This document shows, piece by piece, positions 19,525-39,360 of a stretch of DNA of 64,000 nucleotides. The notes under the pieces were generated by a model. That model was given only the letters and a program-made list of their open reading frames with translations, was not told where the DNA came from and did no database searches. Positions within the stretch are counted from its first letter, which is position 1, and each line of letters begins with the position of its first letter. Source of the DNA: Gammaproteobacteria bacterium. Lineage in GTDB: Bacteria > Pseudomonadota > Gammaproteobacteria > JBCCGL01. Made by a program: the position numbers and the translations under genes. The stretch spans positions 2,944,001 through 3,008,000 of the forward strand of contig OZ255836.1 of assembly GCA_965277715.1 (NCBI GenBank), read 5' to 3'.

Positions 19525-20156
19525 ACCTGCCTACTGTCATTTCATCAGCGGCAAGATTGCATGATTTCACCGTTTTCGACAACTCATTTAGTTAGAATTA
19601 ATTTAGGGCACGCCCTCGACGTAAGCACTCATTTATCAACCGTGTCGGCATACGAATTTGGGACTGAGTGGCACTGATAGCAGTAAACGCCATTAATATT
19701 TCCGGCGCAGCACTGTGACTAAACGCCAGCTTGATAAAAACTGGTTTAAAAAAGCAAGAGGGTCAGGCTTGAATGGCACTTCCTTAAGCTGTAAGTATTT
19801 GAAGTAATTACAAAAAAAGCTGGTTCTATGGTAGGTTATTTGTTGCCAACACAAATACCCTTGATCCCACAGGAACCAGCCATCATGCAGAGTAATGTAA
19901 AAGTCAACATTCTTCAACGTCGCATCAAAAGCCGAGCTCAATCCTCGGATGCATTGAGTTTTTATCACTTGCTGACATCCTCTCAGTTACTTACGAAACT
20001 GGAAGAATTACAACCGGATTTTCGAGCGCGTCGCTATCCTCCTCTAGACACCTTATCGCTGTTTTTATACCAAACAATGAGTGCAGATCAGCCCTGCCAA
20101 CAAGTTGTCAACACACTCGCTGTACAGCGATTAAGTGAAGGTTTATCAGTGAGTAA
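19179..20156 (+). repeat. 978-bp direct duplication, copy 1 (copy 2 at 21756-22733)
   Basis: Near-identical sequence at a constant offset of 2577 with scattered SNPs. Covers the 5' part of coaD, its upstream region and the IS4 left end. Confidence 0.93.
19771..20156 (+). mobile_element. Truncated IS4-family element (left end and 5' of transposase)
   Basis: Starts with TIR GAATGGCACTTCCTTAAGCT; matches the element starting at 22348. Confidence 0.9.
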
Positions 20157-20706
20157 GAGTTCCAGGAACAGGCATCAAATAAAGTATATTCCAATTCAGA
20201 AATGAGCCTGAAGGAGAGGGTAATTAAGTCCCGGTCTTGAGGCGTTCATGAAATTGTTGGAAGAGTTTGTTTCGTGCTGAATGGCGTATTTCAACGGCTT
20301 CGTTGTCTGTCATTTCACGGGCAAATTCATCCCGTTTTTTAAAGGTCATCCCTTTTTTCAAGTATTGACTGGGGCGAGGGAGTGAGCGGAATTTCTCATA
20401 GGGTGTCATCCTATCTTCATAACGATATTTTTTGTGTTGTTTACCTTTGTCATCGGTCACGGTGGAAGGGAAATAGCAGGGGTGGTGGAAGTTGAGATAA
20501 CGGTGGAGAGGGCCGCTGTTAAGATCAGTAAATTGTTCAGCATACTGTTGTGGTATATGGCTGTAGCCATAGAGTTTGCGGATAACAGACCCATTTTTGC
20601 TTTCCACCAACCCGTTGTCGTTACTGTGTCGAGGACGTGATTTGGTGAGTTTAATACGCAGTTTTTCCAGTAGTTCAGCCACACTGTAGTTGATGTATTC
20701 ACCCCC
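20157..20706 (-). mobile_element. C-terminal remnant of an ISNCY/rve-type DDE transposase
   Basis: GGEYIN...TKSRPRHSNDNGLVESKNGSVIRK..GY...TPYEK. Fused in frame to the RAYT-like ORF. Confidence 0.75.
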
Positions 20707-20717
20707 AAAAAGGAAAA

Positions 20718-21748
20718 GGGGGCAATCGTATTTAATATTTTTCAAACGGTTGCAAACCTGCTCAAACACGCCCTTCAAGCTGCCGTCTGACAGCCCACTC
20801 TTTACATAATCAATTGCAGGAGAAAGGCTACTAACACGACTATATACAAACATATCAACCAGCGTTTTTAACGGCATATCTCCCAATTGCTGACAACAAT
20901 ATATCGCTACTTTACGAGGCAGATTCGCCCGTTGTCTCCCCCGCTGTCGCGTAAGTACATCACTCGCGTTAACGCCAAACACCGCTGCCACTGCATCGAC
21001 TATAGCTGCACCGTTTGGCTTGTCCGTCACAATACGGGACAAGTCCCCCGATATGTGCATCGACTCCCGGTTTTCGGCAATATACGTCTTGAAGGATTTG
21101 TCACCCAGTATCGTCGCCACATTGCCTTTGTTATAAAAACGGCCAATGTCCTCATCAATACCTTGACCAACATATGCCTTATAAGCAACGTAACGTTGTT
21201 TAGCACCGAGTGCACTATGGGTTGCCTCTCGATACAACCATTCCGGTGCTTTGGCTTGGTTGATGTAAGCGTGGTAACTCGACCAGGAATAGCTATCGAG
21301 CTTATCCGCTGTTACACCCTTTACTTCTATTGGGTTACGATGAATGTAACGGCTTAAGGGTAATAAGTAGTCGTCTGCATCCACAATAATCGCTTTATAA
21401 CGACTGCGAAAAAGAGGCCCATCCATGCGTCTAAGCCGGTTGTAGCGTTGTGTGTAGATACCATTGATATGCCGCATGATGCGATCCAGATTAGCACGAG
21501 GGGTTTCGATCAATAGATGATAATGATTACCCATCAAACAGTAAGCGTGGGTGTAGGCATCAAAGCGTTTATGTGCTTCATCGAGCGTTTGTAGAAATGC
21601 TTGGTAGTAAATTTCGCCATGAAAGATGGTCTGTCTGGCTTTGCCACGATTCATAACGTGGTAGTAGGCATTTTCGTATTGTATTCGAGTAGGTCTAGGC
21701 ATCGTTTAAATTTATACTATTTTGAAAATATTAAATAGGATTGACCCC
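20718..21748 (-). mobile_element. RAYT-like HUH Y1 transposase with DnaA-domain-IV-like C-terminal HTH, bounded by GGGGTCAATC / GATTGCCCCC ends (CDS start 21702)
   Basis: MPRP.R....YYHVMNRG, AYCLMGNHYHLL (HUH), RYIHRNP (Y1), YSWSSY, C-terminal PRKVAIY..QQL...L. Confidence 0.85.
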
Positions 21749-21750
21749 TT

Positions 21751-22101
21751 TTATTCAGTTTCAACACTAGGGCACATTTGGCGGTTCAGGCCCGCCAACT
21801 GCACCTCATATTCAAAATCAGACACTGCCCGCAGGCCACGGACAATGACCTTTGCCTGCCACTGCACGGCACACTCAACGAGCAGGCCCTTAAAGCTTTT
21901 CACTTCAACATTCGGTAGATCCTGAACGACCTCACACGCCAGGATCTCACGCTGCTCCAGCGCAAAAAAAGGGCGCTTATCTGGATTGTAAGCGATGGCG
22001 ACAATAACGCGATCAAACATCTTCGCTGCACGTCTCGCCACATCGATATGACCATTGGTAATCGGATCAAAAGTGCCGGGATAGATTGCTGTAATTGTCA
22101 T
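21751..22101 (-). pseudogene. coaD: 3'-truncated duplicate of coaD
   Basis: Nearly identical to the first ~115 codons of coaD; cut next to the TGACCCC end of the RAYT-like element. Confidence 0.92.
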
Positions 22102-22347
22102 ACCTGCCTACTGTCATTTCATCAGCGGCAAGATTGCATGATTTCACCGTTTTCGACAACTCATTTAGTTAGAATTAATTTAGGGCACGCCCTCGACGTA
22201 AGCACCCATTTATCAACCGTGTCGGCATACGAATTTGGGACTGAGTGGCACTGATAGCAGTAAACGCCATTAATATTTGCGGCGCAACACTGTGACTAAA
22301 CACCAGCTTGATAAAAACTGGTTTAAAAAAGCAAGGGGGGCAGGCTA

Positions 22348-23913
22348 GAATGGCACTTCCTTAAGCTGTAAGTATTTGAAGTAATTACAAAAAAAGCTGG
22401 TTCTATGGTAGGTTATTTATTGCCAACACAAATACCCTTTATCCCACAGGAACCAGCCATCATGCAGAGTAATGTAAAAGTCAACATTCTTCAACGTCGC
22501 ATCAAAAGCCGAGCTCAATCCTCGGATGCATTGAGTTTTTATCACTTGCTGACATCCTCTCAGTTACTTACGAAACTGGAAGAATTACAACCGGATTTTC
22601 GAGCGCGTCGCTATCCTCCTCTAGACACCTTATCGCTGTTTTTATACCAAACAATGAGTGCAGATCAGTCCTGCCAACAAGCTGTCAACACACTCGCTGT
22701 ACAGCGATTAAGTGAAGGTTTATCAGTGAGTAATACGTATACAGGGAGTTATTGTAAAGCGCGACAAAGGCTGCCAACCCCCCTCGTCTCAGGGCTTGCC
22801 CGTTGTACAGGCGAGTGTGTGGCGAATGAAGCGGCCAGTCACTGGCACTGGCAAGGGCGTTCAGTTAAATTGGTTGACGGCACCACTGTGACAATGCCCG
22901 ATACGCCTGAAAATCAGGTAGTTTATCCGCAACAGTCAGGCCAGCAAGTGGGGATCGGTTTTCCTCTTTGTCGCTGGGTAGGAATTATTTGTTTAGCCAG
23001 TGGTGGTGTTCTCGATGCGGCAATGGGTCCTTTTAAAGGTAAGGGAGCGGATGAGCAAACGTTATTGAGAAAAATACAAAATGCGCTTAAACCGGGTGAT
23101 ATTGTGGTGGGTGATGCCTATTTTGCGGGTTATTTTTTTCTAGCAAACCTTATAGAGCAAGGAGTAGACGGTGTATTTGAGCCGCATGGTGCGCGGCGTA
23201 AATCCACAGATTTTCGAGAAGGCAAAAGGCTTGGATCGAAGGATCACCTGATTTGTTATACAAAGCCCAAGAAGAGACCAGAGTGGATGAGCGAAGAAGC
23301 CTATGAAGCGGCTGCTGATGAAGTGGTTATACGTGAACTGAAAGTGGGTAAAAAACTGTTGGTGACAACGTTGTTATCAGTTAAATCGGCGTCTAAAGAG
23401 GCGCTTAAACAGCTCTACAAAGAACGCTGGCATGTCGAACTTGATTTACGCCATATAAAAACGACAATGAAGATGCACACCTTCCGTTGTAAGACGCCAG
23501 AAATGGTTGAGAAGGAAATGTGGGTACACATATTAGCTTACAACCTTATTCGCTTATTAATGGCGCAATCTGCCTTACTAGTGGACATACTGCCTCGACA
23601 GATAAGTTTTAAGCATACGTTACAAATTTGGGTAGCGTATCGTTATCAGAAAGGCGGTAGCCCTCTGGGTAGTGATAAGGTGTTGGCGCTATGTGCGTTG
23701 ATTGCAGAAAACTGTGTGGGTAATCGACCGGGGCGTATTGAACCAAGAGTGGTTAAACGAAGACCCAAACCGTATCCTTTATTGATGCAGCCAAGGGACG
23801 TGGCCAGAAGTGTTGTTAAAAAATATGGCCATCCCAAAAAACAGAAATAGGTCATTTACAATGAAAGTACTTCCATATTTTTCATGTACTTAGAGCTTAA
23901 GGAAGTGCCATTC
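22348..23913 (+). mobile_element. Complete IS4-family element (transposase 22462-23850)
   Basis: TIRs GAATGGCACTTCCTTAAGCT / AGCTTAAGGAAGTGCCATTC; 11-bp TSD GGGGCAGGCT(A/T); LVDGT, GDAYF and Y..RW.VE...R..K (YREK) motifs. Confidence 0.93.
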
Positions 23914-24000
23914 GGGGCAGGCTTATTATTCACCATACAACGACTAATACGTATAAAAACAGTGATTTCCAGCAAGAAATATAAGAAATAACTGCCTTGA
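23914..24000 (+). repeat. ~92-bp GGGGTCAGG...CCTTGACCCC mini-element, copy 1 (end interrupted by IS1111)
   Basis: Nearly identical to 29289-29379. Its terminal TGA|CCCC is split by the IS1111 and continues at 25421. Confidence 0.85.
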
Positions 24001-25420
24001 TGGGATGGACCCGCTCCCTTTGAATCGGCATCACAATGTGCCAAGATTGAGCGGTAACACAACCAATCTATTATCACCTAATAAAGGTAGGAGCGAGTCC
24101 ATGAACGAGAATATCACCCGATTGGGTATTGATCTAGCCAAAACTATTTTTCAAGTGTGTGGTGCTAATAAACACGGTAAAGTGGTGTTTAATAAAAAAC
24201 TCAAACGCGATCAGCTACCGTCTTATATCGCCAATGTACCGGCCTGTGAGGTGGTGATGGAAGCGTGTGCGACGTCCAGTTATTGGTCGCAGGTTTTCAC
24301 ACGCTACGGCCACACCGTCAAACTCATTAACCCAGCCTATGTACGCCCTTACGTTAAAACAAACAAGAACGATGCAGCGGATGCAGAGGCCCTGTGTGAA
24401 GCAGCCTCACGTCCGAGTATGCGATTTGTTCAGCCCAAAACACCCGACCAACAAGACAGCCAATTATTCCACCGGGTGCGCAGTCGGCTAGTGTCAAAAC
24501 GGACGAGTTTAAGTAATCAGATAAGAGGGTTACTGGGTGAGTATGGGCTGATTATTCCGGTGGGTATTCACCACGTTCGCCAGCACTTGCCTGCGCTTTT
24601 AGAGGATGCTGAAAATGCCTTGTCAGCCACAGCACGTGAAGTGTTCAGTGCTTTGTATGATGAACGAGTGGAGATTGATAAACGCGTAACACACTACACA
24701 AAACGGTTAACCCAGTTGAGCAACCAGCATGAGCGCTGTCAACAATTAAAAACACTGCCGGGTGTAGGGCCTCTGGTCGCCACTGCCTTGTTTACAGCAA
24801 TGGGCGATCCGGGTTTTTATAAAAACGGGCGTGAGTTTTCCGCCTTTTTGGGTCTCGTTCCTCGTCAATATAGTTCGGGGGGCAAAACACAACTCAAAGG
24901 TATCAGTAAACGCGGGGACGAACACGTGCGCACTTTGTTGATACAGGGGGCGCAAGCGGCATTAAGTCGAATGCCTAAACACGATGATGGGCTAAGTCGT
25001 TGGGCCTGTCGTGTCAAAGCACGTCGGGGCCATTGTGTGGCGGCGGTGGCATTGGCCAATAAGCTCGCCAGAATTAGCTGGGCGGTAGCGGCTAATAATA
25101 CAACTTACGTGCATAAAACAGTTTAATAACATCGTTGAAGATTTCTTACCACGAGGTAGCGAAAGAGCAGTAAAGGGTATAACAGGTTAAACCGGCTCAG
25201 ACAGAACCTGGAGGGGGTCATGGTCTTCACAGACCGATTGCTTGATGAGGTGTCTGAGCACGGTTCCCATTATGGCTCTGGACGGATAAACAAATACAAT
25301 CCGTCCTATCGAGAAGCCGGATATATGACTGCTAACCTTATTTACTGTGTCTGCTCTGAACGCTAAAAAATGAATGAACGATTAAAAAATTGTTGAATTT
25401 AACTGCGGGTCCATATATGA
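24001..25420 (+). mobile_element. IS110-family, IS1111-type element (transposase 24101-25126)
   Basis: GIDLAK, MEAC, KNDAADA (DEDD RuvC) and GLVP..YSSGG motifs; subterminal IRs TGGACCCGC / GCGGGTCCA; TGA core on both sides; long right non-coding end. Confidence 0.92.
25190..25335 (+). ncRNA. Predicted bridge/seek RNA in the IS1111 right end
   Basis: Two stem-internal-loop-hairpin modules (CTCAGACA/TGTCTGAG around GGTCT-TCAC-AGACC; GGACGGAT/ATCCGTCC). Loops match the target (GGGGTCA, CTTGA) and the donor ends (CCCAT, ATATATGA). Confidence 0.72.
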
Positions 25421-25458
25421 CCCCTTTTTTTCATTCTGCTATGGTGTATTATTGAGAA

Positions 25459-25803
25459 ATGAAAGAAAAAACACCTATACGGGTTACTCTTCGACTGCCC
25501 GCTGATGTGCATGAAGAGATAGCCTCCGCATCCTCCTTGGCTGGCCTTAGCCTGAATCAAGAGATAGTGTCACGCCTCAAGGAAACGCTTAGGCAAGATA
25601 AATTCTTGGTCGATTCCAATGAATGGATAAATAATCACACGGCTACTTATGATGATTTGTTAGCCTTATATGAAACAGCTACTGTAGAGGTGGAGGAGTG
25701 GAAAGAAAAAGACTACAGCGTTACAACTGCTATGCAAGGTTTTGAGGCTGTAAGCGATATTAAAAACCGCCTTGCCGCTATAGAGAAAAAGCTAGATAAA
25801 TAG
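25459..25803 (+). CDS. Arc-like ribbon-helix-helix DNA-binding protein
   Basis: VTLRLPADVHEEI...A...GLSLNQEIVSRL. Confidence 0.75.
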   Translation: MKEKTPIRVTLRLPADVHEEIASASSLAGLSLNQEIVSRLKETLRQDKFLVDSNEWINNHTATYDDLLALYETATVEVEEWKEKDYSVTTAMQGFEAVSDIKNRLAAIEKKLDK

Positions 25804-25820
25804 CTTTAGGAGCGTGACTA

Positions 25821-26657
25821 GTGGAAATAGCCTATAGCACTATTGAGAAATCCCCAGTATCCATCCATGTCTTTTGCAAAAAGTCTGACGCTGAAATAGA
25901 AAAATTGCGGAGATCATTGTTATGTCCCAAGTGTGAAGTTAAGGCGTGGTTCCGCAAAAAATCAAAAGATGGTAAATCAGCCTGCTTTAATGCGTATCAT
26001 GCAGAAGGCTGTACTGCATCGACACAAAAGCATCAAATAAAAAATAATACCGAAGTTGTCGAAGACGTAAGGCAAATCATTACAAACAATGATACGGTGG
26101 ATTTAAATTTCGTTGTGTATAGCAGTCCAATTGCTGATGGTGAAAATACGTTTCAACAGTCACTTACTATTAAAAACGTCGATTCTGCAAGTTCTCGACA
26201 CAGTATTACACCAGCAATAGAAAGAAACCAAACAAGAAGGTTATCCTCTATATTAAAGCTACTTACAGGCTCGGAGGATTTTGCCAAATCTAATATCAAG
26301 ATTGACACAGGGCCACCAGCTAAACATCCATATTATGCTAGAAATCTGTTTGTGAGCTTTGATGCAATAATCGAAGAGCATATAGGGAAATGGCGCGGTT
26401 TTTGGGGTGTGATCAGTCATGCCAATGAAGAAGTTACATGGTTAAATATTGCAAACAGTTTAGATGTTAGCATCCCTATATCAGCTATTAAGGCTTATTT
26501 GTTAAAAACGTTTAGGATAATGGAAGCAGAAGATTTGGCTGGGGCGCAAGTGCTAGTCTTTGGCTATCTCAACGTTTCAAAAACCAAAGCTAAAAAATAT
26601 TTCATAAAGCTTCGGAATAATAATCCTGCTCATATTTTTCTCAAACTGGACAACTAA
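25821..26657 (+). CDS. Hypothetical protein with N-terminal CxxC...H...C zinc-finger (CoiA-N-like)
   Basis: LLCPKC...WFRKKSKDGKSACF.AYH..GC. Long intact ORF within an operon. Confidence 0.6.
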   Translation: MEIAYSTIEKSPVSIHVFCKKSDAEIEKLRRSLLCPKCEVKAWFRKKSKDGKSACFNAYHAEGCTASTQKHQIKNNTEVVEDVRQIITNNDTVDLNFVVYSSPIADGENTFQQSLTIKNVDSASSRHSITPAIERNQTRRLSSILKLLTGSEDFAKSNIKIDTGPPAKHPYYARNLFVSFDAIIEEHIGKWRGFWGVISHANEEVTWLNIANSLDVSIPISAIKAYLLKTFRIMEAEDLAGAQVLVFGYLNVSKTKAKKYFIKLRNNNPAHIFLKLDN

Positions 26658-26663
26658 CCTCAA

Positions 26664-28631
26664 ATGGAAATAGAAAAGAAATTTAAAGTCCAAGTCCAAA
26701 AGGATCATCTGTCTAAGGTGGCTTCTGGAAAGCCAATAATCGGGTTGTGTGAACTTATTTGGAATGCTTTTGACGCTGACGCAAGCAATGTAAACGTTTA
26801 TTTTAATGAAGGTCAATTTGGTGTTGACCGGGTAATTATTTCCGACGATGGCACCGGCATTAAATATGGTGAAGCTGAAAAATTATTCATTGGTTTAGGT
26901 GGTTCGTGGAAGTCCAGTGGCAAGCAGACAGAAAAAGGGCGGTTTTTACACGGCCAAGAGGGTCAGGGGCGCTTCAAAGCTTTTACCATTGGGCGTGTAA
27001 CTGATTGGAAAGTTGTTTATAAAGAAGACAACAAGTTCTATGAATACACGATTGAAGGTAAAGCGGAGGCTATTGACGAATTTTTATTAAGTTCTAATAA
27101 AGATTCAGACCAACGCAAAACTGGTGTAACTGTCGAAATAACTGAAATCAATAAAAATTTCCATATCCTTGATGAAAACAAGGCACTTGAAAAACTTGCA
27201 CCAGTCTTTGCCTTGTACCTTAAAAATTATAGTGGGGTAATCCTCCGTATAGGTAGTCAAAAGCTGGATGCTTCAATAGCTATCAAGGATATTAAAAGTA
27301 TTGATCTGCCGGCATTGAGTATTGAAGATAAGGAACATTTTGTAAGCGTTGAAATAGTAGAGTGGAACGGTATTTCAGCGCGCGAAATATGGTTTGCTGA
27401 TTCAAAAGGCTTTCCACTTGAATCTTATGATAAACAAGTTCGAGGTATTGGAGAGAGTGGATTCAGTGCCTATATAAAATCGGACTACTTCCGTGAATTA
27501 AAAAACAAGGATTTATTATCATTACGCGACCTTGAAGCAAGCATTAGCGCCTGCTGCGAGACAGCAATCAATGCGGTCAAAGAACACTTCTTATTAAGGG
27601 CCTTGGAACAAGCAAGAAACCAAATTGACGAATGGAAAGATGAAGAAATCTACCCGTTCAAGGGTGAACCTGTGTCCCCTATTGAAGATGCTGAAAGAAA
27701 AATTTTTGATATTGTCGCCATTAATGTAAATAAAAGCCTTCCAGATTTTAAAAATTTAAATAAAAAATCTAAACAGTTTCAGTTAAGAATGCTGAAACAG
27801 GCGATAGAAAAAAGTCCTGAAGACCTTCAGATCATTATGACTGAAGTTCTAAATCTACCAAAAAATACACGGGAAAGTTTAGCTGAATTACTTCAAGGAA
27901 CAAGTCTTTCGTCAATTATTAATGCATCTAAGGTGGTGTCAGACCGAATAAAATTCATAACCGGTTTAGACCAGCTTGTTTTTAATCACAAAGACAACTT
28001 AAAAGAACGTACACAACTGCATAGAATCTTAGCTCAAAACACTTGGATTTTTGGTGATGGATTTACTTTGTCGGTTGACGATCAAGCACTAACTGAAGTT
28101 CTTAAACAACATGCTTCTTGCTTGGAAAATGATGTTGTAATTAACGATCCGGTAACAAGAGTTGACGGTCGTCGCGGCATTGTTGACTTGATGTTATCAA
28201 GACAACTGCCCCGAAACCGTGCCGACGAATTAGAACATTTAGTTATAGAGTTGAAAGCCCCTAAAGTTGTTATTGGTAAAAAGGAAATTGACCAGATAGA
28301 AAGTTATGCTTTTGCTGTTTCTAATGATGAACGATTTAGAAGTCTTAATACAAAGTGGGACTTCTGGATCATTTCAAATGACTATGATGATTATGCAGAA
28401 CTCAAACTTGAGAATGACAGCTTTGAATATGGCGTGATTTATAAAACCAGTAAAAAGCGTAATGTTACTATCTGGCTAAAAACATGGTCTGAACTAATTG
28501 CTGAAAATAAACACCGTCTTGAATTTATTCGTGACAAGCTAAATTATAATGTCGATAAAGAAAGCGCAATGAATCACCTGAAATCGACATATTCTGAATA
28601 TATTGATGGTGTGGTTTTGGAAAATAAATGA
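26664..28631 (+). CDS. GHKL (MORC/HATPase_c_3) ATPase fused to a C-terminal PD-(D/E)xK nuclease
   Basis: ELIWNAFDADA, DDGTG, G..GQGRF, TGVTVEI; C-terminal VDLML...VIELK.P...QIESYA. Confidence 0.8.
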   Translation: MEIEKKFKVQVQKDHLSKVASGKPIIGLCELIWNAFDADASNVNVYFNEGQFGVDRVIISDDGTGIKYGEAEKLFIGLGGSWKSSGKQTEKGRFLHGQEGQGRFKAFTIGRVTDWKVVYKEDNKFYEYTIEGKAEAIDEFLLSSNKDSDQRKTGVTVEITEINKNFHILDENKALEKLAPVFALYLKNYSGVILRIGSQKLDASIAIKDIKSIDLPALSIEDKEHFVSVEIVEWNGISAREIWFADSKGFPLESYDKQVRGIGESGFSAYIKSDYFRELKNKDLLSLRDLEASISACCETAINAVKEHFLLRALEQARNQIDEWKDEEIYPFKGEPVSPIEDAERKIFDIVAINVNKSLPDFKNLNKKSKQFQLRMLKQAIEKSPEDLQIIMTEVLNLPKNTRESLAELLQGTSLSSIINASKVVSDRIKFITGLDQLVFNHKDNLKERTQLHRILAQNTWIFGDGFTLSVDDQALTEVLKQHASCLENDVVINDPVTRVDGRRGIVDLMLSRQLPRNRADELEHLVIELKAPKVVIGKKEIDQIESYAFAVSNDERFRSLNTKWDFWIISNDYDDYAELKLENDSFEYGVIYKTSKKRNVTIWLKTWSELIAENKHRLEFIRDKLNYNVDKESAMNHLKSTYSEYIDGVVLENK

Positions 28632-28885
28632 ACCAAGTCCAGGCCATTGACGAACAAAAAACTATTGAAGATTACCGGGAGCTGATCAATGAGGTTTCAG
28701 GTAGCCCAACGTCTGAAAATATCCGAAAACTAGCATTGTGGGTTTACTATATCGCTCCCAAGTTACCCAACGAGGTTGAAAGCGGTGTTTGGGAAAGCCT
28801 ATATACCGCGTTACCTATTCAAGCTGTTATTGAAATTAACGAGCTAATTAGCAATAACTCTCAACCCCCGGTTACTAGAAACTAG
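28628..28885 (+). CDS. Small hypothetical protein, translationally coupled to the GHKL gene
   Basis: ATGA overlap with the upstream stop; 85 aa. Confidence 0.55.
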   Translation: MNQVQAIDEQKTIEDYRELINEVSGSPTSENIRKLALWVYYIAPKLPNEVESGVWESLYTALPIQAVIEINELISNNSQPPVTRN

Positions 28886-29029: not shown

Positions 29030-29283
29030 GTAAGCGCCCTTAAATCAGCCTCTATTCCAAGGTAATGTCCAAAACGACATGCCAAGGTAGCAAGGCCTCT
29101 CTCTTTTCAAGAGTATCGGCACTGCCGATATGATTAAGGGCGTGCAGTATGTACGCATAGGGTTCAAGCCCATTAGCTTTGGCCGTTTCGATCAATGAGT
29201 AACATGTGGCACTGGCATGGGCGCCACGGGTTGAATCGGCAAACAACCAGGCTTTTCTACCCACGGCAAAAGGCCTGATAGAA
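29030..29283 (-). mobile_element. IS66-family remnant (TnpC C-terminus and terminal IR)
   Basis: IRPFAVGRKAWLF...YSLIETAKANGLEPYAY...LLPW; TIR GTAAGCGCCC at 29030. Confidence 0.88.
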
Positions 29284-29287
29284 GCAA

Positions 29288-29379
29288 GGGGGTCAGGCTT
29301 ATTATTCACCATACAACGACTAATACGGATAAAAACAGTGGTTTCCAGCAAGAAATATAGGAAATAACTGCCTTGACCC
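29288..29379 (+). repeat. ~92-bp GGGGTCAGG...CCTTGACCC mini-element, copy 2
   Basis: Direct repeat of 23914-24000 with inverted GGGGTCA/TGACCC ends. Confidence 0.85.
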
Positions 29380-31270
29380 GAATGGCACTTCCTTAAGACG
29401 TAAGCAACTGATAGTAAAGAGTTTATTTATTCTTTCTAAGAAAAAAAATGATATTTTGAAAGTTGCCGCCAATGATAACCGGGATAGTTTTACAAATATT
29501 GCTTTCAAGAACCGGTGTTTGTCAAGGTAGTTGTCCGTTTTACTGTGCTACTTGCTTTTCAATTCCATTGTGCTTTTGTCTCATGGCCAAGCCTTCCTTT
29601 TCCGGGTTTAACCACACCCCCGATACCGGTTCGAGGTGTTTAATATCCTGGCTCCAGCGTTCAGGGTGTTTGGCCTTTGCTTGTTCATAAACTGCTTTTC
29701 TGGCTGCCAGTATCGCGTGATCTTCGCCTTTATGACGCGAGGCTGGTGTCACAAACCCAATGCCGCTATGGCAATGAGAGTCGTTGTACCATTGCACAAA
29801 TCCATGCACCCAGTTTCGGGCAGAGGCTAAACTATCAAATGGCTTTGACGGATAGGCAGGCGTGTATTTTAAGGTTCTAAACAGACTTTCTGAATAAGGA
29901 TTATCATCGCTTACCGATGGCCTGCTAAACGAAGGTATCACACCCAACCATTGCAGTTTTGCTAACATGGTAGCACCTTTCATCGGGCCACCATTATCCG
30001 CGTGTAATACCAATTGACTCTGGCTGCATCCCTCCGCTAAACAGGCACGCTGGATCAGCGCCGCTGCCAGATCAGCCGATTCACTGTCATGCACTTCCCC
30101 GGCAACAATTTTACGACTGTAAATATCCATCATCATGTAAAGCCGGTAAAACCACCCGGTTATGTTCGATTTCAAAAAGGTAATATCCCAAGACCACACC
30201 TCGTTTGGCCTTGATGCCAGGTAGCTGTTAGGTTTGTGCCGTTTTTTAGGCGCCGCCGCCTTACCTCGCCGCTGCAGTTGGTTTTCCGACTTTAACACCC
30301 GATAGAAGCTTGACTCTGATCCAATATACACACCTTCATCCGCCAATTTGGGCACAATTTGCGAGGGGGGTAGCGCTTGGTATTTCGCTTCATTACAAGT
30401 GGTGACGATCAATGCCCGCTCTTCTGCTGTGAACTTATTACCAGGCGCCTGTCGATGAGCGCTGGGTCTGCCATCAGCACGGACAGTACCCGCGTTTGCC
30501 CAGCGTCGGTACGTCTTAGGGTGTCACTCAAGCACTTTGCACGCTTTGCTTAATGTAGCGCCAGCGACAACGGCCTCTTTGATTAAACGGATACTATTTT
30601 GGCGATCTGAATGGCAGGTCATTCGTCCTCTCCCTCCCCCCAGATCGCTTGGGCCTTTTTTCTAAGCACCAGCAAAGCGGCTGTTTCGGCTAACGCTTTC
30701 TCCTTTCGGTGCAGGTCTTGTTCGAGACGTTTAATACGTTTATCCGCTTCTCTACGACTGGTTTGTAAACGTTTCGTTTGGGCGCGATCCCAGTCATTGG
30801 CTTGTTCACAAGCCATTCGCCATGCCTTAATCTGATCAGGGTACAAACCACGATGACGGCAATAAGCTGAAAGGTCTGTTTCGCTTAATGACGCACTTTC
30901 CAGAACCGCTGAAAACTTATCCGAAGAACCCCAACCTGCTGGTGTCAAATCGCCATCTGGCATGAGTTCGCCTTTCGCTCTTGCTGGGGCTCGCCAACTA
31001 TAAAGCGTACCTTGTGCAATGCCTTCTTCTTTGGCTAACCGGGAAATTGTCTGATTGTTCGGCGGCAGCATCTTCTTTAAAACAGCGGCCTTTCTTTCTA
31101 TTGGATAACGCATACCACTCTCTCTTTGCCTCCTGTAATAACTTATTGAATCCCAATTTAGGGAGGGGGACAACTACCCTGACACAGGGGGGAACCATAT
31201 GCCAAGTTATCTGAACCAAGCACATAATACCAATACTTTCAAATACTTACAGCTTAAGGAAGTGCCATTC
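29380..31270. mobile_element. Non-autonomous IS4-end derivative carrying an IS3 element
   Basis: GAATGGCACTTCCTTAAG at 29380 and CTTAAGGAAGTGCCATTC ending at 31270; no IS4 transposase inside. Confidence 0.75.
29520..31184 (-). mobile_element. IS3-family element (orfA ~30619-31113; orfB to 29540 with a premature stop)
   Basis: TIRs TGTCA(A/G)GGTAGTTGTCC; WSWDIT, HADNG and SESLFRTLK DDE motifs; in-frame TGA near 30525. Confidence 0.88.
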
Positions 31271-31356
31271 GTGCCTGTCCTATTTTTCTTCTGTTTTTCC
31301 TATTTCTATATAGTGCCTGTCCTATTTTTCCTAGGTCTGTAAAAAGACTGCGAGCT

Positions 31357-31437: not shown

Positions 31438-31464
31438 GTTGGCCTCAGTTAAATTAGATATGCA

Positions 31465-32783
31465 GGTTCTTCCCCGGTTTGTGTGAGGTTATAGTATTTC
31501 ATCCCCCCTTTGCTATTGAGAGACTCCGGTGCTATCGAGCCTTGAAGAACACTACAGCCAGCTCCTGGGCCTGACAGATGACTGGTCAGTGACATCAGTT
31601 GATTTAGACCCTTCAGGGTTAAAAGTATCCATTTCGTTGGCATTTAGCGGCAACCACGGCCCTTGTTCGCACTGTGGCGAAGTGAGTCCGTTCTATGATC
31701 ACCGTTCACAAGAGCGATCCTGGAGACACCTGGATACTATGCAGTTTGAAACGCGCCTACACAGTCGCATTCCCCGAGTAAATTGTCTGGAGCATGGTGT
31801 TAAAAGTATGGTGTTACCCTGGGCAAGCAAGCGCAGTCGTTTTACGTTGTTGTTTGAATTATTTTCCATCAGGGTGTTGCAAGCCTCACGTAGCGTCGAA
31901 GAGGCGCGTAAGTTACTGGGGCTTAGCTGGAACGCAGTGGAAGCCATCAAAGCCCGCGCTGTCGAGCGGGGACTTTCGCGTCGGGAATTGGTGACAATTG
32001 AGTACCTGGGTATTGATGAGAAGTCCCACCGTAAAGGGCATGACTATGTGACGCTCATCAATGATATCGATGGAGGGCGAGTATTGGATGGAGTGAAAGA
32101 TCGCACCCAGGCAACCTGTGAGGAGGCGTTGGAGGTTGCGCTGACGGATAACCAGCGAGAACAGGTGAAAGCTGTCGCGATTGATAGGTGGCCTGCGTTC
32201 ATTAATGCTGTTGAGGTAAAACTGTCAGACAGTGCGATTGTTCACGACCGTTTTCATATTAGCCAACACCTGAATAAGGCGGTGGATCAGGTCCGTCGTG
32301 ATGAACATAGAGACCTTTTGTCACAGGGCGATAGCCGGTTGAAAAAGAGTCGTTATCACTGGTTAAAAAATGAAGAAAATTTGTCTAACAAAGCAGCCGA
32401 GCACTTTGAGTCACTCAAGCATGATCAGTTATTGACAGCCCGAGCCTGGGCGATAAAAGAACTGTTTCGTGATTTTTGGACGTATAAGACAGCGGGTTGG
32501 GCAAAGCGTTTCTTTAGCGCATGGTATGCGTGGGCAATTCGGTGCCGATTGGACAGCATAAAGAAAGTGGCCAAGATGATAAAAACGCACATGCCGAACA
32601 TATTGACATGGTTTAAGCACACAATAAGTAATGCCGTGTCAGAGGGTTTGAATTCAAAAATTCAGACAGTCAAATCGAATGCAAGAGGGTTTCGTTCGTT
32701 TGAAAGCTACCGGCGGAGTATTTTGTTTTACTGCGGAAAGCTGGATAGGGAACCAGTGGCTTCACAATAATCGGGGAAGAACC
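31465..32783 (+). mobile_element. Complete ISL3-family element (transposase ~31529-32770)
   Basis: TIRs GGTTCTTCCCCG / CGGGGAAGAACC; 8-bp TSD GATATGCA; zinc finger CxxC..C..H, GIDE, DRFH, SNAVSEGLN. Confidence 0.93.
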
Positions 32784-33811: not shown

Positions 33812-34691
33812 GGGGGCAAACCAATTATTCAATATTCAACTGACTTTCAATCTGGTAGATCATCTCATAGAACTCTCCGGTGTCTAACTGCTTTCTGATA
33901 TAGGCTATTGCGCTTGATACACCACCAGGATGACTTAGACCGAAAATAGTGAGTAATCGCTTTTAGTGACATACCGCTAAACCGCTGGCAGTAATACATC
34001 GCCAGTTTATGGGGAATGTTCACACTGCTTGCCTTGACTGAACAAAATACTGCCTTCGCTCACCCGGCAACAACTTGCCACAGTGCTTACTATCAAGTGG
34101 CTGGCCAACTTTTCCCGCAACTAAAGCGTTGTATATCCTCATCAACCCCTTGACCTACATAGTCTGCGTAGCGTTGATAGCTGTTTCGCGCCGGTAAACA
34201 GGTATAAACGTGATTGCGGCACAACCAAGCGGGGCTCGATGTCTTTCCTATATAAGCTGGGTAACGAGACCAGGGATAGCTCTCTAGCGATTGAACCAGA
34301 GTGGCAATAGATAGGCGCCTTCATCGACATTCAGGGCCTTAAACCGTCCTCTAAACTAATAGCCATCGGTTTTTTTAAGACGGTTATAACGTTATGTATA
34401 AACACCATCGACGTGCTGCATGATGCGACTGAGGTTAGCATCCGGTGTTTCCAGTGGTAGGTGGTAGTGGTTGCCCATTAGGCGGTATATGTGAATTACT
34501 GCCCGGAAACGGTCTGCGGCTTCGGCCAATGTAGTGAGAAACGCTTGGTAGTAAGCTTCGCCATGAAAAATCGCCTTACGCTCCCGACCACGGTTCATTA
34601 TGTGGTAGAAGGCGTTTTCGTATTCTATGCGCTGAGGCCTTGGCATCGGTTGATATTCACACAATCTATACGAAATAACTAGACTGACCCC
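33812..34691 (-). mobile_element. Decayed second RAYT-like Y1 transposase element with the same end motifs
   Basis: MPRPQRIEYENAFYHIMNRG...MGNHYHL, FRGRFKA, YVGQGVDEDI and DnaA-C-like pieces in shifted frames; TGACCCC at 34685 and GGGGGCAA at 33812. Confidence 0.82.
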
Positions 34692-34704
34692 TTTTGCTCT
34701 GCTT

Positions 34705-36058: not shown

Positions 36059-36085
36059 ACCGATATGAAACGGGTTCTTCGTAGA

Positions 36086-36631: not shown

Positions 36632-36974
36632 CGTCTGTTCCTACGCAAAAATCTTGATAAAGTTTCCTGGCGGTTTCTAGATCACCATCCAATCTATTTT
36701 TAGAATATCCATAAAAAATATTAATGCAAGTTATTTTTTATATATTTCCTCTCTTTACAGAAAAAAACATATTAAGGTATTGAAATACGTAAAGAAAAAA
36801 TATTTAGTGATCAAATCAACTGGTAACATCTCTAGATAGGTAAAAAATGGCCGCTTTTCTCTGGAAAATATTTCATATTGGGCTAATCAGCAAAGACTGG
36901 TTTAAACTTATAAGTATTTGAAATAAAGTCACTGCTGTCCCGCTAAGAAGAAATAAGGAGACCTGAATATTCGA

Positions 36975-38150
36975 TTATTTTTTTACAATGAATTCACCAT
37001 AAACCATTAAATCAACAAAAGGTTGATTCGGGTAGGCTGGCCGATATTTCAATGTACAAAATAGCGATTCAGAATGCGGGTTGTCGTTACTGACAGATGG
37101 ACGGCTAAACGAGGGAATCACACCTAATTGCTGTAATGTGGCTAACATCGTTGTCCCTTTCATTGGACTGCCATTATCAGAATGCAGCGTGACTTGTTGC
37201 TGTTTGATCTTTTCCCTTAAACAAATATCTACCAGTAGATTGGCTGCCAAGGCGCTTGATTCTTCTTCAAACACTTGTCAACCCACTATCTTCCGGTTGT
37301 AAATATCCATCACTAAATACAGATAGAAAAATAGCTCTTTGATGGCCGTTGGTAGATAAGTGATATCCCAAGAGTAAATTTCATTGGGTCTTGTGCCAAG
37401 CAATGCACGAGGTTTGTTAATCGCCCTAGGCTTTGATTTTTGTCGGTGTGTTAACTATTTTTCATCCTTTAGTATCCTATAAAAACTGTACTCTGACGCC
37501 AAATAACGACTGTTATCGGCAAGACGAGGAACTTATCTTACCAGGCGGTAAATCCGCGTATTCAGGCTCATTAGCGACCTTGAGCAGCTGTTGCCGTTCC
37601 CACTCACTCAACTTATTGCCCGGCTTGTGTGTAGGCTCCAAACGACGATCCTTCGTTTGTTCAGTTCGCGTCCAACGCTGATAGGTTTTTGCACTGATGC
37701 CCACCATACTGCAAGCTTCTGACTGCCTAGCCCCTGCCGCTCTGGCTTGGTCTATTAACACTATAATCTCATCGCGTTCTTCACTCATGGTGAGTCGCCC
37801 TCGTCGTTTCCCCATATCGCGTTGACTTTTTTTTCAACACCAACAGCGCTGCTGTTTCTGCCAGCGCTTTGTCTTCACGATGTAATTCCTTTTTCAGTTC
37901 TTGGTTCTCTACTTTCAACTGCCAGGTTTCTGCTCGCTCTGCAACTTTGTCTTGGTTTGATGAGCTACCTAAAAATTCGTTTTTCCATTGTTCGATATGA
38001 TGCAGGTAAATACCTTTTGCTCGACACGTTTCACTGACTTGTGCTTCGTCCAAGGCACCACAACTTATCACCATATCCAACTTATCTTCTTTACTCCAAT
38101 CTTGTGATCACCTTTCTTTTTTCATAACGGTTTTATCGCATTGAGTCGAT
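36975..38150 (-). mobile_element. Fragmented IS3-family element
   Basis: orfA remnant (KALAETAALLVLKKK) and orfB remnants (SWDITYL, HSDNGSPMKG, SRPSVSNDNP.SESLF), with several frameshifts. Confidence 0.85.
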
Positions 38151-38178
38151 TTCAATATATATGCTCTCGATTCTCTTA

Positions 38179-39326
38179 AAAGGCTGCCAACCCCCCTCGT
38201 CTCAGGGCTTGCCCGTTGTACAGGCGAGTGTGTGGCGAATGAAGCGGCCAGTCACTGGCACTGGCAAGGGCGTTCAGTTAAATTGGTTGACGGCACCACT
38301 GTGACAATGCCCGATACGCCTGAAAATCAGGTAGTTTATCCGCAACAGTCAGGCCAGCAAGTGGGGATCGGTTTTCCTCTTTGTCGCTGGGTAGGAATTA
38401 TTTGTTTAGCCAGTGGTGGTGTTCTCGATGCGGCAATGGGTCCTTTTAAAGGTAAGGGAGCGGATGAGCAAACGTTATTGAGAAAAATACAAAATGCGCT
38501 TAAACCGGGTGATATTGTGGTGGGTGATGCCTATTTTGCGGGTTATTTTTTTCTAGCAAACCTTATAGAGCAAGGAGTAGACGGTGTATTTGAGCCGCAT
38601 GGTGCGCGGCGTAAATCCACAGATTTTCGAGAAGGCAAAAGGCTTGGATCGAAGGATCACCTGATTTGTTATACAAAGCCCAAGAAAAGACCAGAGTGGA
38701 TGAGCGAAGAAGCCTATGAAGCGGCTGCTGATGAAGTGGTTATACGTGAACTGAAAGTGGGTAAAAAACTGTTGGTGACAACGTTGTTATCAGTTAAATC
38801 GGCGTCTAAAGAGGCGCTTAAACAGCTCTACAAAGAACGCTGGCATGTCGAACTTGATTTACGCCATATAAAAACGACAATGAAGATGCACACTTTCCGT
38901 TGTAAGACGCCAGAAATGGTTGAGAAGGAAATGTGGGTACACATATTAGCTTACAACCTTATTCGCTTATTAATGGCGCAATCTGCCTTACTAGTGGACA
39001 TACTGCCTCGACAGATAAGTTTTAAGCATACGTTACAAATTTGGGTAGCATATCGTTATCAGAAAGGCGGTAGCCCTCTGGGTAGTGATAAGGTGTTGGC
39101 GCTATGTGCGTTGATTGCAGAAAACTGTGTGGGTAATCGACCGGGGCGTATTGAACCAAGAGTGGTTAAACGAAGACCCAAACCATATCGTTTATTGATG
39201 CAGCCAAGGGACGTGGCCAGAAGTGTTGTTAAAAAATATGGCCATCCCAAAAAACAGAAATAGGTCATTTACAATGAAAGTACTTCCATATTTTTCATGT
39301 ACTTAGAGCTTAAGGAAGTGCCATTC
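38179..39326 (+). mobile_element. 5'-truncated copy of the IS4-family element
   Basis: Near-identical to ~22766-23913, including the right TIR. Confidence 0.92.
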
Positions 39327-39360
39327 TAACCTGATCCTCTTTTTTCTCTTTTTTAATAAA

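What the first reader, a model, noticed from the sequence alone, without database searches (positions are those of the whole stretch)
19754..39345. A TGACCCC 'landing-pad' system: RAYT-like Y1 transposase ends mark island junctions and are shared by three unrelated mobile-element types
Seen: a GGGGTCA/TGACCCC-type motif, usually followed by a T-rich tail that is often stuttered, lies at the breakpoints 19758, 20718, 21742, 22337, 23914, 23998/25418, 29288, 29374, 31271/31314, 33812, 34685 and 39327. A weaker CTGTCCC match lies at 36935. Two RAYT-like HUH-Y1 genes with a DnaA-IV-like HTH are each bracketed by the motif in inverted orientation. Unrelated sequences start or stop at it: truncated coaD, ISNCY, IS66, the HEPN stop codon, the Ham1 remnant and a half attC. 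Established: HUH-Y1 enzymes cut ssDNA at short motifs and leave no TSD. Inference: these transposases mobilise or join DNA at TGACCCC ends without the usual REP hairpins, capturing and truncating neighbouring genes, while IS4 and IS1111 exploit the same sites. I know of no full mechanistic description of this end type.
Basis: partly seen in the sequence, partly recalled or inferred. Interest (0 to 1): 0.8.

Follow-up and report, generated by a model that had tools for sequence, protein, structure and literature searches.

The report
Known TIRtron ends targeted by insertion sequences
The repeated GGGGTCA/TGACCCC motif is the inverted-repeat tip of an already described but little-studied family of small mobile elements (TIRtrons), and it recurs at junctions here largely because a site-specific IS4-type insertion sequence inserts at that kind of sequence.

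Summary
The motif is real but of mixed origin. The 7-mer alone is weak: 13 copies against 6.4 expected, and only 5 lie in the region. TGMCCCCTT occurs 5 times, and all five are element tips.

Two Y1_Tnp+Bac_DnaA_C elements are bracketed by inverted GGGG(T/G)CA tips: one near-intact (20714-21752) and one decayed (33812-34691). This is the TIRtron/TIRYT family, with tip consensus GGGGWSAS (Di Nocera 2013; subclass 2.1 of Quentin 2018). In 34 of 61 homologous loci, exact GGGGTCA and TGACCCC flank the gene. The elements are about 1.03 kb and none of 35 shows a target duplication.

A tip-to-tip mini-element of about 92 bp occurs twice. Most other "motif" sites flank an IS4-subgroup IS with a 19-bp end. 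All 6 such ends in the window abut the motif. So do 71 of 115 ends in other genomes (0.9% at random), with 11-bp duplications.

One IS1111-type element splits a tip. The IS3-family element sits inside an IS4-derived MITE, not in a tip. I found no evidence for gene capture by the Y1 enzyme.

Verdict: new members of known kinds. The IS4 preference for this motif is the only modestly new point.

The parts
19036..19524 (-). Complete coaD, at the left border of the IS-rich, low-GC stretch.
   Evidence: ORF list. 19179-20156 is duplicated at 21756-22733 (98.2%). GC drops from about 19 kb to 41 kb.
19754..19770 (+). Degenerate left tip of the mini-element (AAGAGGGTCAGGCTT), abutting IS4 copy A.
19771..20156 (+). 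IS4-subgroup IS, copy A: only the first 386 bp.
   Evidence: Identical IR at 19771-19802. Homology to copy B ends at 20156.
20227..20718 (-). C-terminal remnant of an integrase-type transposase, read through from the Y1 ORF.
   Evidence: Weak rve_3 hit, E 0.0039, below cut-off.
20714..21752 (-). TIRtron A, 1031 bp tip to tip (20718-21748), with 33-nt terminal inverted repeats.
   Evidence: IR pair I9. No hairpin at either end. Length matches the homologue mode of 1033 bp.
20719..21702 (-). TIRYT gene of 328 aa (Y1 HUH + DnaA-IV-like HTH). The tip stop codon is changed from TGA to TGC, so the ORF runs on to 20224.
   Evidence: Y1_Tnp 54.1 bits; Bac_DnaA_C 29.4 bits against a cut-off of 31.5. 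HUH H60-Y61-H62 and Y119 are invariant, and paralogue P0002 ends ...KYD. The stop lies in the tip in 19 of 66 homologues.
21751..22101 (-). Truncated duplicate of coaD (116 aa), ending at the right tip of TIRtron A.
22348..23913 (+). IS4-subgroup IS, copy B: complete, 1566 bp, 481-aa DDE transposase (22405-23850), inserted in the left tip of mini-element copy 1.
   Evidence: DDE_Tnp_1. Target duplication GGGGCAGGCT[A/T], 10 of 11. Best plasmid hits are annotated IS4 family.
23914..24000 (+). Body of mini-element (MITE-T) copy 1, up to ...GCCTTGA.
   Evidence: 95.5% identical to 29289-29376.
24001..25417 (+). IS110-family (IS1111-type) element splitting the right tip of MITE-T copy 1. Transposase at 24005-25126.
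   Evidence: DEDD_Tnp_IS110 + Transposase_20. Subterminal ATGGACCCGC / GCGGGTCCAT ends.
25418..25428 (+). Right tip of MITE-T copy 1 (TGACCCCTTTT).
   Evidence: Several contigs diverge just after 25428.
25459..28885 (+). Cargo between the two MITE-T copies: Arc-like protein, 278-aa protein with no family, 655-aa HATPase_c_3 protein, 85-aa ORF.
   Evidence: One contig in run X4 joins 25428 to 29282 (side 29, weak).
29052..29276 (-). IS66 TnpC C-terminal fragment, cut at the left edge of MITE-T copy 2.
   Evidence: DDE_Tnp_IS66_C. Contigs of 4 of 4 runs continue differently behind 29276.
29277..29379 (+). MITE-T copy 2. The left tip is intact (GGGGGTCAGGC); the right tip is cut after TTGACCC.
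   Evidence: Its ends resemble TIRtron B ends at 21/34 and 23/34 positions.
29380..31270 (.). IS4-derived MITE of 226 bp (29380-29519 + 31185-31270), carrying an IS3-family element.
   Evidence: 38-nt IRs with the 19-bp tip, and inner IS3 IRs. A joint 29508->31192 lacking the IS3 occurs in 4 of 4 runs.
29520..31184 (-). IS3-family element (orfA 30619-31173, orfB 29540-30412) with its own 17-nt IRs, TGTCAAGGTAGTTGTCC.
   Evidence: rve/rve_3 and HTH_Tnp_1. IR pair I2.
31271..31331 (+). Two copies of GTGCCTGTCCTATTTTTC (31271 and 31314). These are weak, solo tip-like motifs; the first abuts the MITE.
31465..32783 (+). ISL3-family IS with its own IRs; not linked to the motif.
   Evidence: IR pair I13. 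DDE_Tnp_ISL3.
33812..34691 (-). TIRtron B, decayed: 880 bp, with the Y1 gene broken by frame changes and stops.
   Evidence: tblastn pieces fall in two frames and in-frame stops are present. Y1_Tnp lies in 34392-34802. Tips.
38179..39326 (+). IS4-subgroup IS, copy C: the last 1148 bp. The flank TAACCTGATCC is motif-like.
   Evidence: 99.6% identical to 22766-23913. Flank.
40977..41261 (-).
   Evidence: 96.2% identical to 33837-34122. tblastn hit to Y1 residues 259-320.
41436..41525 (-). tRNA-Ser(CGA), at the right border of the IS-rich stretch.

Best explanation
The stretch between coaD and tRNA-Ser is an IS graveyard in a sponge-associated bacterium.

**What the motif is.** GGGGTCA/TGACCCC is the tip of the terminal inverted repeat of TIRtrons. 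These are elements of about 1.03 kb that encode one protein, a TIRYT: a RAYT-like HUH Y1 transposase with a C-terminal DnaA-domain-IV-like helix-turn-helix. The window holds one near-intact TIRtron, one decayed copy, one fragment, and two copies of a tip-to-tip derivative of about 92 bp with no gene.

**Likely mechanism (inferred, not shown).**
- The HTH positions the enzyme on the inverted repeat.
- The Y1 domain cuts one strand at or next to the GGGG tip.
- The element moves as single-stranded DNA, as IS200/IS605 and REP/RAYT systems do. This leaves no duplication.
- The gene-less derivative is moved in trans.

**Why the motif sits at so many junctions.**
- Element ends are junctions by definition.
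- An IS4-subgroup DDE insertion sequence, with a highly conserved 19-bp end, inserts sequence-specifically at G|GGGWCWGNNNC|C followed by a T-rich run. It duplicates 11 bp. GGGGTCAG-type tips satisfy this target.
- One IS1111-type element has also inserted into a tip.

Later insertions, a 978-bp duplication and deletions produced the chimeric flanks.
For: **Family identity**
- Y1_Tnp plus Bac_DnaA_C, with the HUH motif and catalytic Tyr invariant.
- 6230 homologues; 115 of the 120 listed carry both Pfam domains.
- The literature describes TIRYT/TIRtrons with GGGGWSAS tips and equates them with subclass 2.1, which carries Bac_DnaA_C.

**Architecture across genomes**
- Of 61 homologous loci with 150 nt or more on both sides, 34 have exact GGGGTCA upstream and TGACCCC downstream. 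Background is 0.23 per kb, about 0.02 per side.
- 35 have inverted-repeat pairs identical at 15 or more of 24 positions.
- 26 of those 35 elements are 997-1066 bp long. None of the 35 shows a duplication of 3 bp or more.
- The flanks read AA|GGGG...CCCC|TT.
- The ORF stops at the TGA of the tip in 19 of 66 loci, and 8 nt later in 12 more.
- The ends show no hairpin.

**Multi-copy state**
- Paralogues at 95%, 93% and 54% identity are listed with the same longest-contig length.
- Contigs from 4 sponge-metagenome runs break or diverge at element ends.

**IS4 targeting**
- 6 of 6 IS4-type ends in the window abut the motif.
- 71 of 115 ends in 106 loci from many phyla do so, against 186 of 21200 random positions.
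- 13 of 29 end pairs have flanking direct repeats identical at 9 or more of 11 positions; 6 are perfect.
- Size, GAATG end and 11-bp repeat fit the IS4 subgroup table. That paper notes "spectacular apparent insertion specificity" for some members.
Against: - No biochemical data exist for any TIRYT, so cleavage at the tip and single-strand transposition are inference.
- The window's tips deviate from the consensus. The left tips are GGGGGCA, and the change destroys the stop codon of copy A.
- The Bac_DnaA_C score (29.4 bits) is below Pfam's cut-off (31.5).
- 27 of the 61 homologous loci lack the exact motif pair.
- The IS4 target is not identical to TIRtron tips:
  - No IS4-type end occurs in the 80 Y1 homologue loci (440 kb).
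  - Only 8 of 39 class-A flanks have an inverted partner within 2.5 kb.
  - In genome G001 only 9 of 32 ends fit the motif. Ten carry GGGACGCCTG/CAGGCGTCCC instead, and that genome's TIRtron tips (GGGGTCAAG) are unoccupied in the one locus read.
- 44 of 115 ends fit neither motif class.
- Some IS copies have inverted rather than direct flanks (L037, L070).
- The search for the exact 19-mer biases the sample towards one IR type.
Confidence: 0.78

Rival explanations
1. One reading: a previously undescribed Y1 end type. Its enzyme actively joins, captures and truncates neighbouring genes at TGACCCC, and three unrelated IS types share it as a landing pad.
For: - Unrelated sequences do abut the tips: the rve fragment at 20714, coaD' at 21752, the IS66 fragment at 29276 and the HEPN stop at 33811.
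- One contig in run X4 joins 25428 to 29282, tip edge to tip edge, without the 3.85-kb cargo.
Against: - The end type is in print.
- The IS3-family element is nested in an IS4-derived MITE.
- coaD' belongs to a 978-bp duplication that also includes IS4 sequence.
- The X4 joint rests on one contig with a 29-nt side, and could come from another locus with adjacent mini-elements.
- No cargo-carrying TIRtron was seen: 26 of 35 homologous elements are 997-1066 bp, room for the transposase alone.
Confidence: 0.08
2. The GGGWCWG sequences next to the IS4-type ends belong to the IS itself, as an extended or variable end. They are not a chosen target, so there is no targeting.
For: - Flanks are inverted rather than direct in L037 and L070, and differ between the two sides in the Pseudomonas veronii plasmid copy.
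- The 19-bp end is invariant while the transposases are as little as 25% identical.
Against: - 13 of 29 pairs have direct repeats identical at 9 or more of 11 positions, with sequences that differ between copies. That is the signature of duplication.
- The window's copy B splits a mini-element whose uninterrupted form exists at 29289.
- Unoccupied motif copies exist at 29288 and 31314.
Confidence: 0.07
3. The TIRYT genes are domesticated, immobile host genes, as is argued for REP-associated RAYTs. The tips would be a dispersed host repeat family rather than transposon ends.
For: - The literature reports tip repeats as singles, dimers and groups.
- Solo tip-like motifs occur at 31271 and 31314.
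- Most IS4 targets elsewhere are solo motifs.
Against: - The window holds three copies in different states of decay, inside a mobile-DNA dump.
- Near-identical paralogues appear to lie in one genome.
- Contigs diverge right after the tips in several runs.
- Gene and TIRs form a compact unit of constant length across phyla.
Confidence: 0.1
4. Chance: a G/C-rich 7-mer that happens to fall near some junctions.
For: - The exact 7-mer is only twofold enriched.
- 8 of the 13 copies lie outside the finding's interval.
Against: - The tips lie in extended inverted repeats of 33 nt.
- The same arrangement is found in 34 of 61 homologous loci, against about 0.02 expected per side.
- IS4 flanks show the motif about 70-fold over random positions.
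Confidence: 0.02

Closest known systems
TIRtrons / TIRYT (Di Nocera, De Gregorio & Rocco 2013, BMC Genomics 14:522), equated with TnpAREP subclass 2.1 (Quentin et al. 2018, BMC Genomics 19:475)
   Same: - A RAYT-like Y1 HUH protein of about 320 aa with a C-terminal Bac_DnaA_C/HTH domain.
- Terminal inverted repeats in place of REP hairpins.
- A GGGGWSAS tip.
- Tip repeats that also occur as dimers or singles.
- TIRs that overlap the gene's 3' end.
   Different: - The window's left tips read GGGGGCA, which costs copy A its stop codon.
- The host is a sponge-associated gammaproteobacterium-like organism.
- The tips here are heavily colonised by other ISs, which I did not see described in the passages I read.
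REP/RAYT (REPtrons, REPINs) and REP sequences as IS targets (Tobes & Pareja 2006, BMC Genomics 7:62)
   Same: - A Y1 enzyme flanked by inverted copies of its cognate repeat.
- Gene-less two-repeat derivatives (REPIN-like).
- The repeat is a preferred target for ISs of several families; IS3, IS110, IS4, IS256 and IS5 are reported.
   Different: - There is no palindromic hairpin and no GTAG/CGTC tag at the ends.
- The protein is longer and has an HTH.
- The unit behaves like a multi-copy IS rather than a single-copy host gene.
IS4 family, IS4 subgroup (De Palmenaer, Siguier & Mahillon 2008, BMC Evol Biol 8:18)
   Same: - A single DDE ORF in an element of 1566 bp.
- An end that starts -AATG.
- An 11-bp direct repeat.
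- Marked insertion specificity, as noted for some members of the subgroup.
   Different: - I did not find the target consensus G|GGGWCWGNNNC|C, or its overlap with TIRYT tips, stated in the text I could read. Figure 3 of that paper, which shows target consensuses, is not held.
- The 19-bp end is exact across many phyla.
IS1111 group of the IS110 family (site-specific; bridge-RNA guided per Durrant et al. 2024; abstract and listing seen only)
   Same: - DEDD + Transposase_20 domains.
- Subterminal inverted repeats.
- Insertion at one precise place in a repeated sequence.
- A long 3' non-coding end.
   Different: - There is only one insertion to judge from.
- Relatives (41% identity or less over the full length) use other targets.
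- A guide RNA was not demonstrated.
IS231 inserting into the terminal repeats of Tn4430 (recalled; IS231A insertion specificity is cited in PMC2266710)
   Same: An IS4-family element that prefers the end of another transposon.
   Different: - A different subgroup, target sequence and host.
- The Tn4430 detail is from memory, not from a call.

Membership tests
TIRtron / TIRYT (subclass 2.1) | Y1 HUH nuclease domain with HUH motif and catalytic tyrosine, RAYT-like. | tested here: met
   Y1_Tnp scores 54.1 bits. H60-Y61-H62 and R118-Y119-I120-H121-R122-N123-P124 are invariant in 8 sequences.
TIRtron / TIRYT (subclass 2.1) | C-terminal HTH similar to Bac_DnaA_C / HTH_23 / HTH_28. | tested here: met
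   Bac_DnaA_C E 7.9e-07, 29.4 bits, just under the 31.5 cut-off. PF08299 is precomputed for 115 of the 120 listed homologues.
TIRtron / TIRYT (subclass 2.1) | Gene flanked by terminal inverted repeats rather than REP hairpins. | tested here: met
   33-nt arms, 88% complementary. Fold z-scores at the four ends are -0.87 to +1.32. The arrangement holds in 35 of 61 homologous loci.
TIRtron / TIRYT (subclass 2.1) | TIR tip fits GGGGWSAS. | tested here: inconclusive
   - Right tips GGGGTCAA (A) and GGGGTCAG (B): 7/8 and 8/8.
- Left tips GGGGGCAA: 6/8.
- Mini-element tips GGGGTCAG and GGGGTCAA.
REP/RAYT (REPtron) | Flanking repeats are short GC-rich palindromes (REP) with a GTAG or CGTC tag. | tested here: not met
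   No hairpin at the ends. No GTAG tag in the ends as read.
IS200/IS605 | Short TnpA (about 150 aa), subterminal hairpins, no inverted repeats. | tested here: not met
   The protein has 328 aa with an HTH. The ends are inverted repeats without hairpins.
IS4 family, IS4 subgroup | Single DDE_Tnp_1 transposase; 1400-1650 bp; ends -AATR; direct repeats of 10-13 bp. | tested here: met
   DDE_Tnp_1. 1566 bp, end GAATG, 11-bp repeat at 10/11 in the window and 11/11 in 6 other copies. Criteria taken from the table.
IS4 family, IS4 subgroup | YREK motif in the C1 region. | not tested
   I did not align the C1 region.
IS110 family, IS1111 group | DEDD_Tnp_IS110 + Transposase_20 domains; subterminal IRs; site-specific insertion without long duplication. 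| tested here: met
   Domains. ATGGACCCGC / GCGGGTCCAT lie near the ends, and only TGA is repeated at the junctions.
IS110 family, IS1111 group | Non-coding bridge RNA with guides matching target and donor. | tested here: inconclusive
   The 3' end holds GGAGGGGGTCATGG, complementary to 10 of 12 target bases; I estimate chance at about 0.2. Relatives gave no covariation support. Rfam found nothing there.
IS3 family (for 29520-31184) | orfA (HTH_Tnp_1) + orfB (rve), IRs starting TG... | tested here: met
   17-nt IR TGTCAAGGTAGTTGTCC, 94% complementary.
   I made no attC or intI search. No integrase was seen among the ORFs scanned.

The most novel reading that the evidence does not exclude
A cross-phylum lineage of IS4-subgroup insertion sequences keeps an exact 19-bp end even where the transposases are only about 25% identical. 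On this reading it is a dedicated "parasite of a parasite". It homes to the GGGGWSAS tip that TIRYT enzymes use, so that one short sequence serves as a shared landing pad for Y1, DDE and DEDD recombinases. The dispersed solo GGGTCAG...TTTT motifs that it also hits would then be footprints of TIRYT activity.
Probability: 0.25. Interest if true: 0.55.

Novelty: new member of a known kind. Interest (0 to 1): 0.35.

Why it matters
TIRtrons are widespread: this search found 6230 homologues. In the held library they are named in only two works (three records), and no biochemistry was found, so well-resolved copies with a gene-less derivative are useful material for a first assay.

The practical lesson is for annotation. 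A GGGGTCA...TGACCCC pair about 1 kb apart around a Y1+HTH gene is one element. GAATGGCACTTCCTTAAG next to GGGWCWG marks an IS4-type insertion.

The IS4 target preference across phyla adds one more case to the known habit of ISs to insert into other repeats. It could be exploited as a natural site-specific DDE system if confirmed.

Tried and rejected
**Genome-wide count.** No whole genome is held for this window, so the motif was counted only in the window and in related loci.

**IS1111 as a general user of the tip.**
- Protein relatives (19 loci; 41% identity or less over the full length) have other flanks.
- A 15-base end pattern gave 116 stretches with no IS110 homologue among them. They are chance hits, because the pattern was too short for that collection.
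- A 23-base pattern found nothing in the metagenome contigs.
- The question stays open.

**Bridge-RNA guide.**
- One 10-of-12 complement to the target lies in the 3' non-coding end. I estimate chance at about 0.2.
- An alignment with relatives gave no support.
- Rfam found nothing in the ISs.

**IS3 as a third landing-pad user.** Rejected. It has its own IRs and sits inside an IS4-derived MITE.

**REP-like hairpins at the tips.** None.

**Reciprocal tests of "IS4 homes to TIRtrons".**
- There are 0 IS4-type ends in the 80 Y1 loci.
- In genome G001 only 9 of 32 ends fit the motif, and its TIRtron in L029 is unoccupied.
- I therefore claim only a sequence preference that some tips satisfy.

**Literature search by sequence strings.** It returned only unrelated primer hits.

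**PADLOC on the cargo.** Only two weak hits.

**Read laying.**
- All four runs are contigs, so depth is not copy number.
- Run X4 has no cover over 25434-28862. I report this only together with its single bridging contig (side 29), which may come from another locus.
- The joint 21740->29373 (X6, side 23) is too short to rely on.

**Not visible.** Supplements of the papers, and Figure 3 of PMC2266710 and Figure 9 of PMC3733652, could not be seen. They may already list this target consensus or these tips.

**Not used.** Structure prediction, complex prediction, the search of protein representatives and the Atlas.

**First submission.** One search was returned for a missing confidence field. This report is the same with that field added.

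Full report
**Observation.**
- Exact TGACCCC is only twofold enriched in the window: 13 copies against 6.40 expected. Five lie in the reported interval and eight lie outside it.
- With its T tail (TGMCCCCTT) it occurs five times against 1.21 expected. All five are element tips inside the interval.

**Map.** The stretch from coaD (19036-19524) to tRNA-Ser (41436-41525) has lower G+C and is packed with mobile DNA. In order:
- The first 386 bp of an IS4-type IS (19771-20156).
- An rve remnant.
- TIRtron A (20714-21752).
- A duplicated, truncated coaD. 21756-22733 equals 19179-20156 at 98.2%.
- A complete IS4-type IS (22348-23913), inserted in the left tip of a mini-element.
- The mini-element body (23914-24000).
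- An IS1111-type element (24001-25417) splitting the mini-element's right tip (25418-25428).
- 3.4 kb of cargo.
- An IS66 fragment.
- A second mini-element copy (29277-29379).
- An IS4-derived MITE (29380-31270) carrying an IS3-family element (29520-31184, with its own IRs).
- ISL3 (31465-32783).
- An NTase-HEPN gene.
- The decayed TIRtron B (33812-34691).
- A degraded IS3-like copy.
- The last 1148 bp of the IS4-type IS (38179-39326).
- A TIRtron B-like fragment (40977-41261).

**What the Y1 elements are.**
- The 328-aa protein has Y1_Tnp and a Bac_DnaA_C-like HTH, with invariant HUH and Tyr.
- Quentin et al. 2018 (passages read) place Y1 proteins with this C-terminal domain in subclass 2.1. 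They found no REP nearby and equate the subclass with the TIRYTs of Di Nocera et al. 2013.
- Di Nocera et al. 2013 (passages read) define TIRtrons: RAYT-like genes flanked by terminal inverted repeats whose tips fit GGGGWSAS, with tip repeats also found as singles, dimers or groups.
- The held library has three records with the word TIRYT, which are these two works. A further search found no later mechanistic paper.

**Comparative test.**
- The scan confirmed 575 stretches encoding a relative, and the best 80 loci were kept. Of these, 61 had 150 nt or more on both sides.
- Exact GGGGTCA lay upstream in 43, TGACCCC downstream in 38, and both in 34. The background in the same loci was 0.23 per kb.
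- 35 had inverted-repeat pairs identical at 15 or more of 24 positions.
- 26 of those 35 elements are 997-1066 bp long; the window's copy is 1031 bp.
- None of the 35 has a direct repeat of 3 bp or more. The flanks read AA|GGGG...CCCC|TT.
- The T-rich tail has a plain reason. In 19 of 66 loci the ORF's stop is the TGA of TGACCCC, and in 12 more it is the TAG/TAA/TGA 8 nt on.
- In the window's copy A the tip reads TGC, so the ORF runs 165 codons into the neighbouring remnant. Paralogue P0002 (95% identical) ends ...KYD.
- No end folds better than shuffles.
- TIRtron B is a pseudogene.
- The mini-element's two ends resemble the two ends of TIRtron B at 21/34 and 23/34 positions. This fits a deletion derivative but does not prove it.

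**The IS4-type element.**
The complete copy is 1566 bp with a DDE_Tnp_1 transposase and a 10/11 direct repeat, GGGGCAGGCT.
- Its nearest annotated relatives are IS4-family. Its size, -AATG end and 11-bp repeat fit the IS4 subgroup. De Palmenaer et al. 2008 note striking insertion specificity for some members of that subgroup.
- The exact 19-mer occurs in more than 106 stretches from Planctomycetota, Verrucomicrobiota, Gammaproteobacteria, Desulfobacterota and others. 21 of the 106 loci encode a relative of the transposase at 25-66% identity, and 6 hold a Y1 gene.
- Of 115 ends, 39 are followed by GGGWCWG at +1 and 32 by CWGWCCC at +5 (one mismatch or fewer). At random positions the figure is 186 of 21200. 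44 ends fit neither class.
- Thirteen of 29 end pairs have flanking repeats identical at 9 or more of 11 positions.
- The target reads G|GGGWCWGNNNC|C followed by a T-rich run.
- All six such ends in the window abut the motif.

**Limits of the "landing pad".**
- The IS4 target overlaps tips of the GGGGTCAG type but is not the same thing as them.
- No IS4-type end lies in the 80 Y1 loci.
- Only 8 of 39 class-A flanks have an inverted partner within 2.5 kb, one of them around a Y1 gene.
- In genome G001, which has 43 ends, only 9 of the 32 I examined fit the motif. Ten carry GGGACGCCTG/CAGGCGTCCC, and the TIRtron in L029 is unoccupied.
- The IS1111-type insertion is a single case. Relatives have other targets, and closer ones were not found.
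- REP sequences as shared targets of IS3, IS110, IS4, IS256 and IS5 members have been known since 2006.

**Population data (contigs only).**
- The stretch is held in sponge-metagenome runs of four studies.
- Contigs break or diverge right after the tips (21752, 25428) and at IS ends.
- A form of the IS4-derived MITE without the IS3 element occurs in 4 of 4 runs.
- IS66 continues past 29276 in 4 of 4 runs.
- One contig in X4 joins 25428 to 29282 with no cargo. The evidence is weak (29-nt side).

**Verdict.**
- These are new members of known kinds.
- The mechanism proposed for the Y1 element is inference from the family: HTH-guided, single-strand, no duplication.
- Gene capture is unsupported.
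- The cross-phylum IS4 preference for a GGGWCWG target is the one point I did not find stated in the text I could read.

Noticed in passing
44411-44458, 53656-53699, 57209-57254, 63699-63747: A separate family of 44-48-nt near-perfect palindromes (CTAGACCCCATGTATTGACTTG...CAAGTCAATACATGGGGTCTAG) lies in the ordinary part of the window. It looks REP-like, and the GGGGTC faces outward, the opposite of TIRtron tips.
   Followed up: no
4257-4439 and 10409-10497: Two copies of another small repeat with inverted ends (CCTAAATTCCGCAGTTGAATC...GATTCAACGGCGGAATTTAGG). One is about 90 nt and the other about 183 nt. It looks like a MITE.
   Followed up: no
20224-21702 (-): The stop codon of the TIRYT gene normally lies in the inverted-repeat tip (TGA of TGACCCC). 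In this copy it reads TGC, which gives a 492-aa read-through ORF fused to an rve remnant.
   Followed up: yes
25205-25225, in the 3' non-coding end of the IS1111-type element: The segment GGAGGGGGTCATGG is complementary to 10 of 12 bases of the tip the element sits in. It lies in a stretch that varies among relatives. It may be a bridge-RNA guide, but chance is not excluded.
   Followed up: partly
25459-28885: A cargo operon sits between the two mini-element copies: an Arc-like protein, a 278-aa protein with no family, a 655-aa HATPase_c_3 protein (weak PADLOC REase_II hit) and an 85-aa ORF. Run X4 contigs do not cover it.
   Followed up: partly
L029:7521-7556: A 36-bp element made only of two fused IS4-type ends, flanked by a 10/11 direct repeat (GGGACAGTT.A). 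It appears to be the smallest possible derivative of this IS.
   Followed up: partly
G001 (genome behind L029), loci L324-L353: In this genome an IR variant (TTAAGGCAGTGCCATTC) sits almost always next to GGGACGCCTG/CAGGCGTCCC. This shows lineage-specific retargeting of the IS4-type element.
   Followed up: partly
32936-33811: An NTase (Polbeta) + HEPN fusion gene has its TAA stop in the TTAA that directly abuts the left tip of TIRtron B.
   Followed up: no
19000-41500: G+C falls from about 0.55 to 0.36-0.50 across the IS-rich stretch, which ends at tRNA-Ser(CGA). This may be an island at a tRNA gene; no integrase was seen among the ORFs scanned.
   Followed up: no
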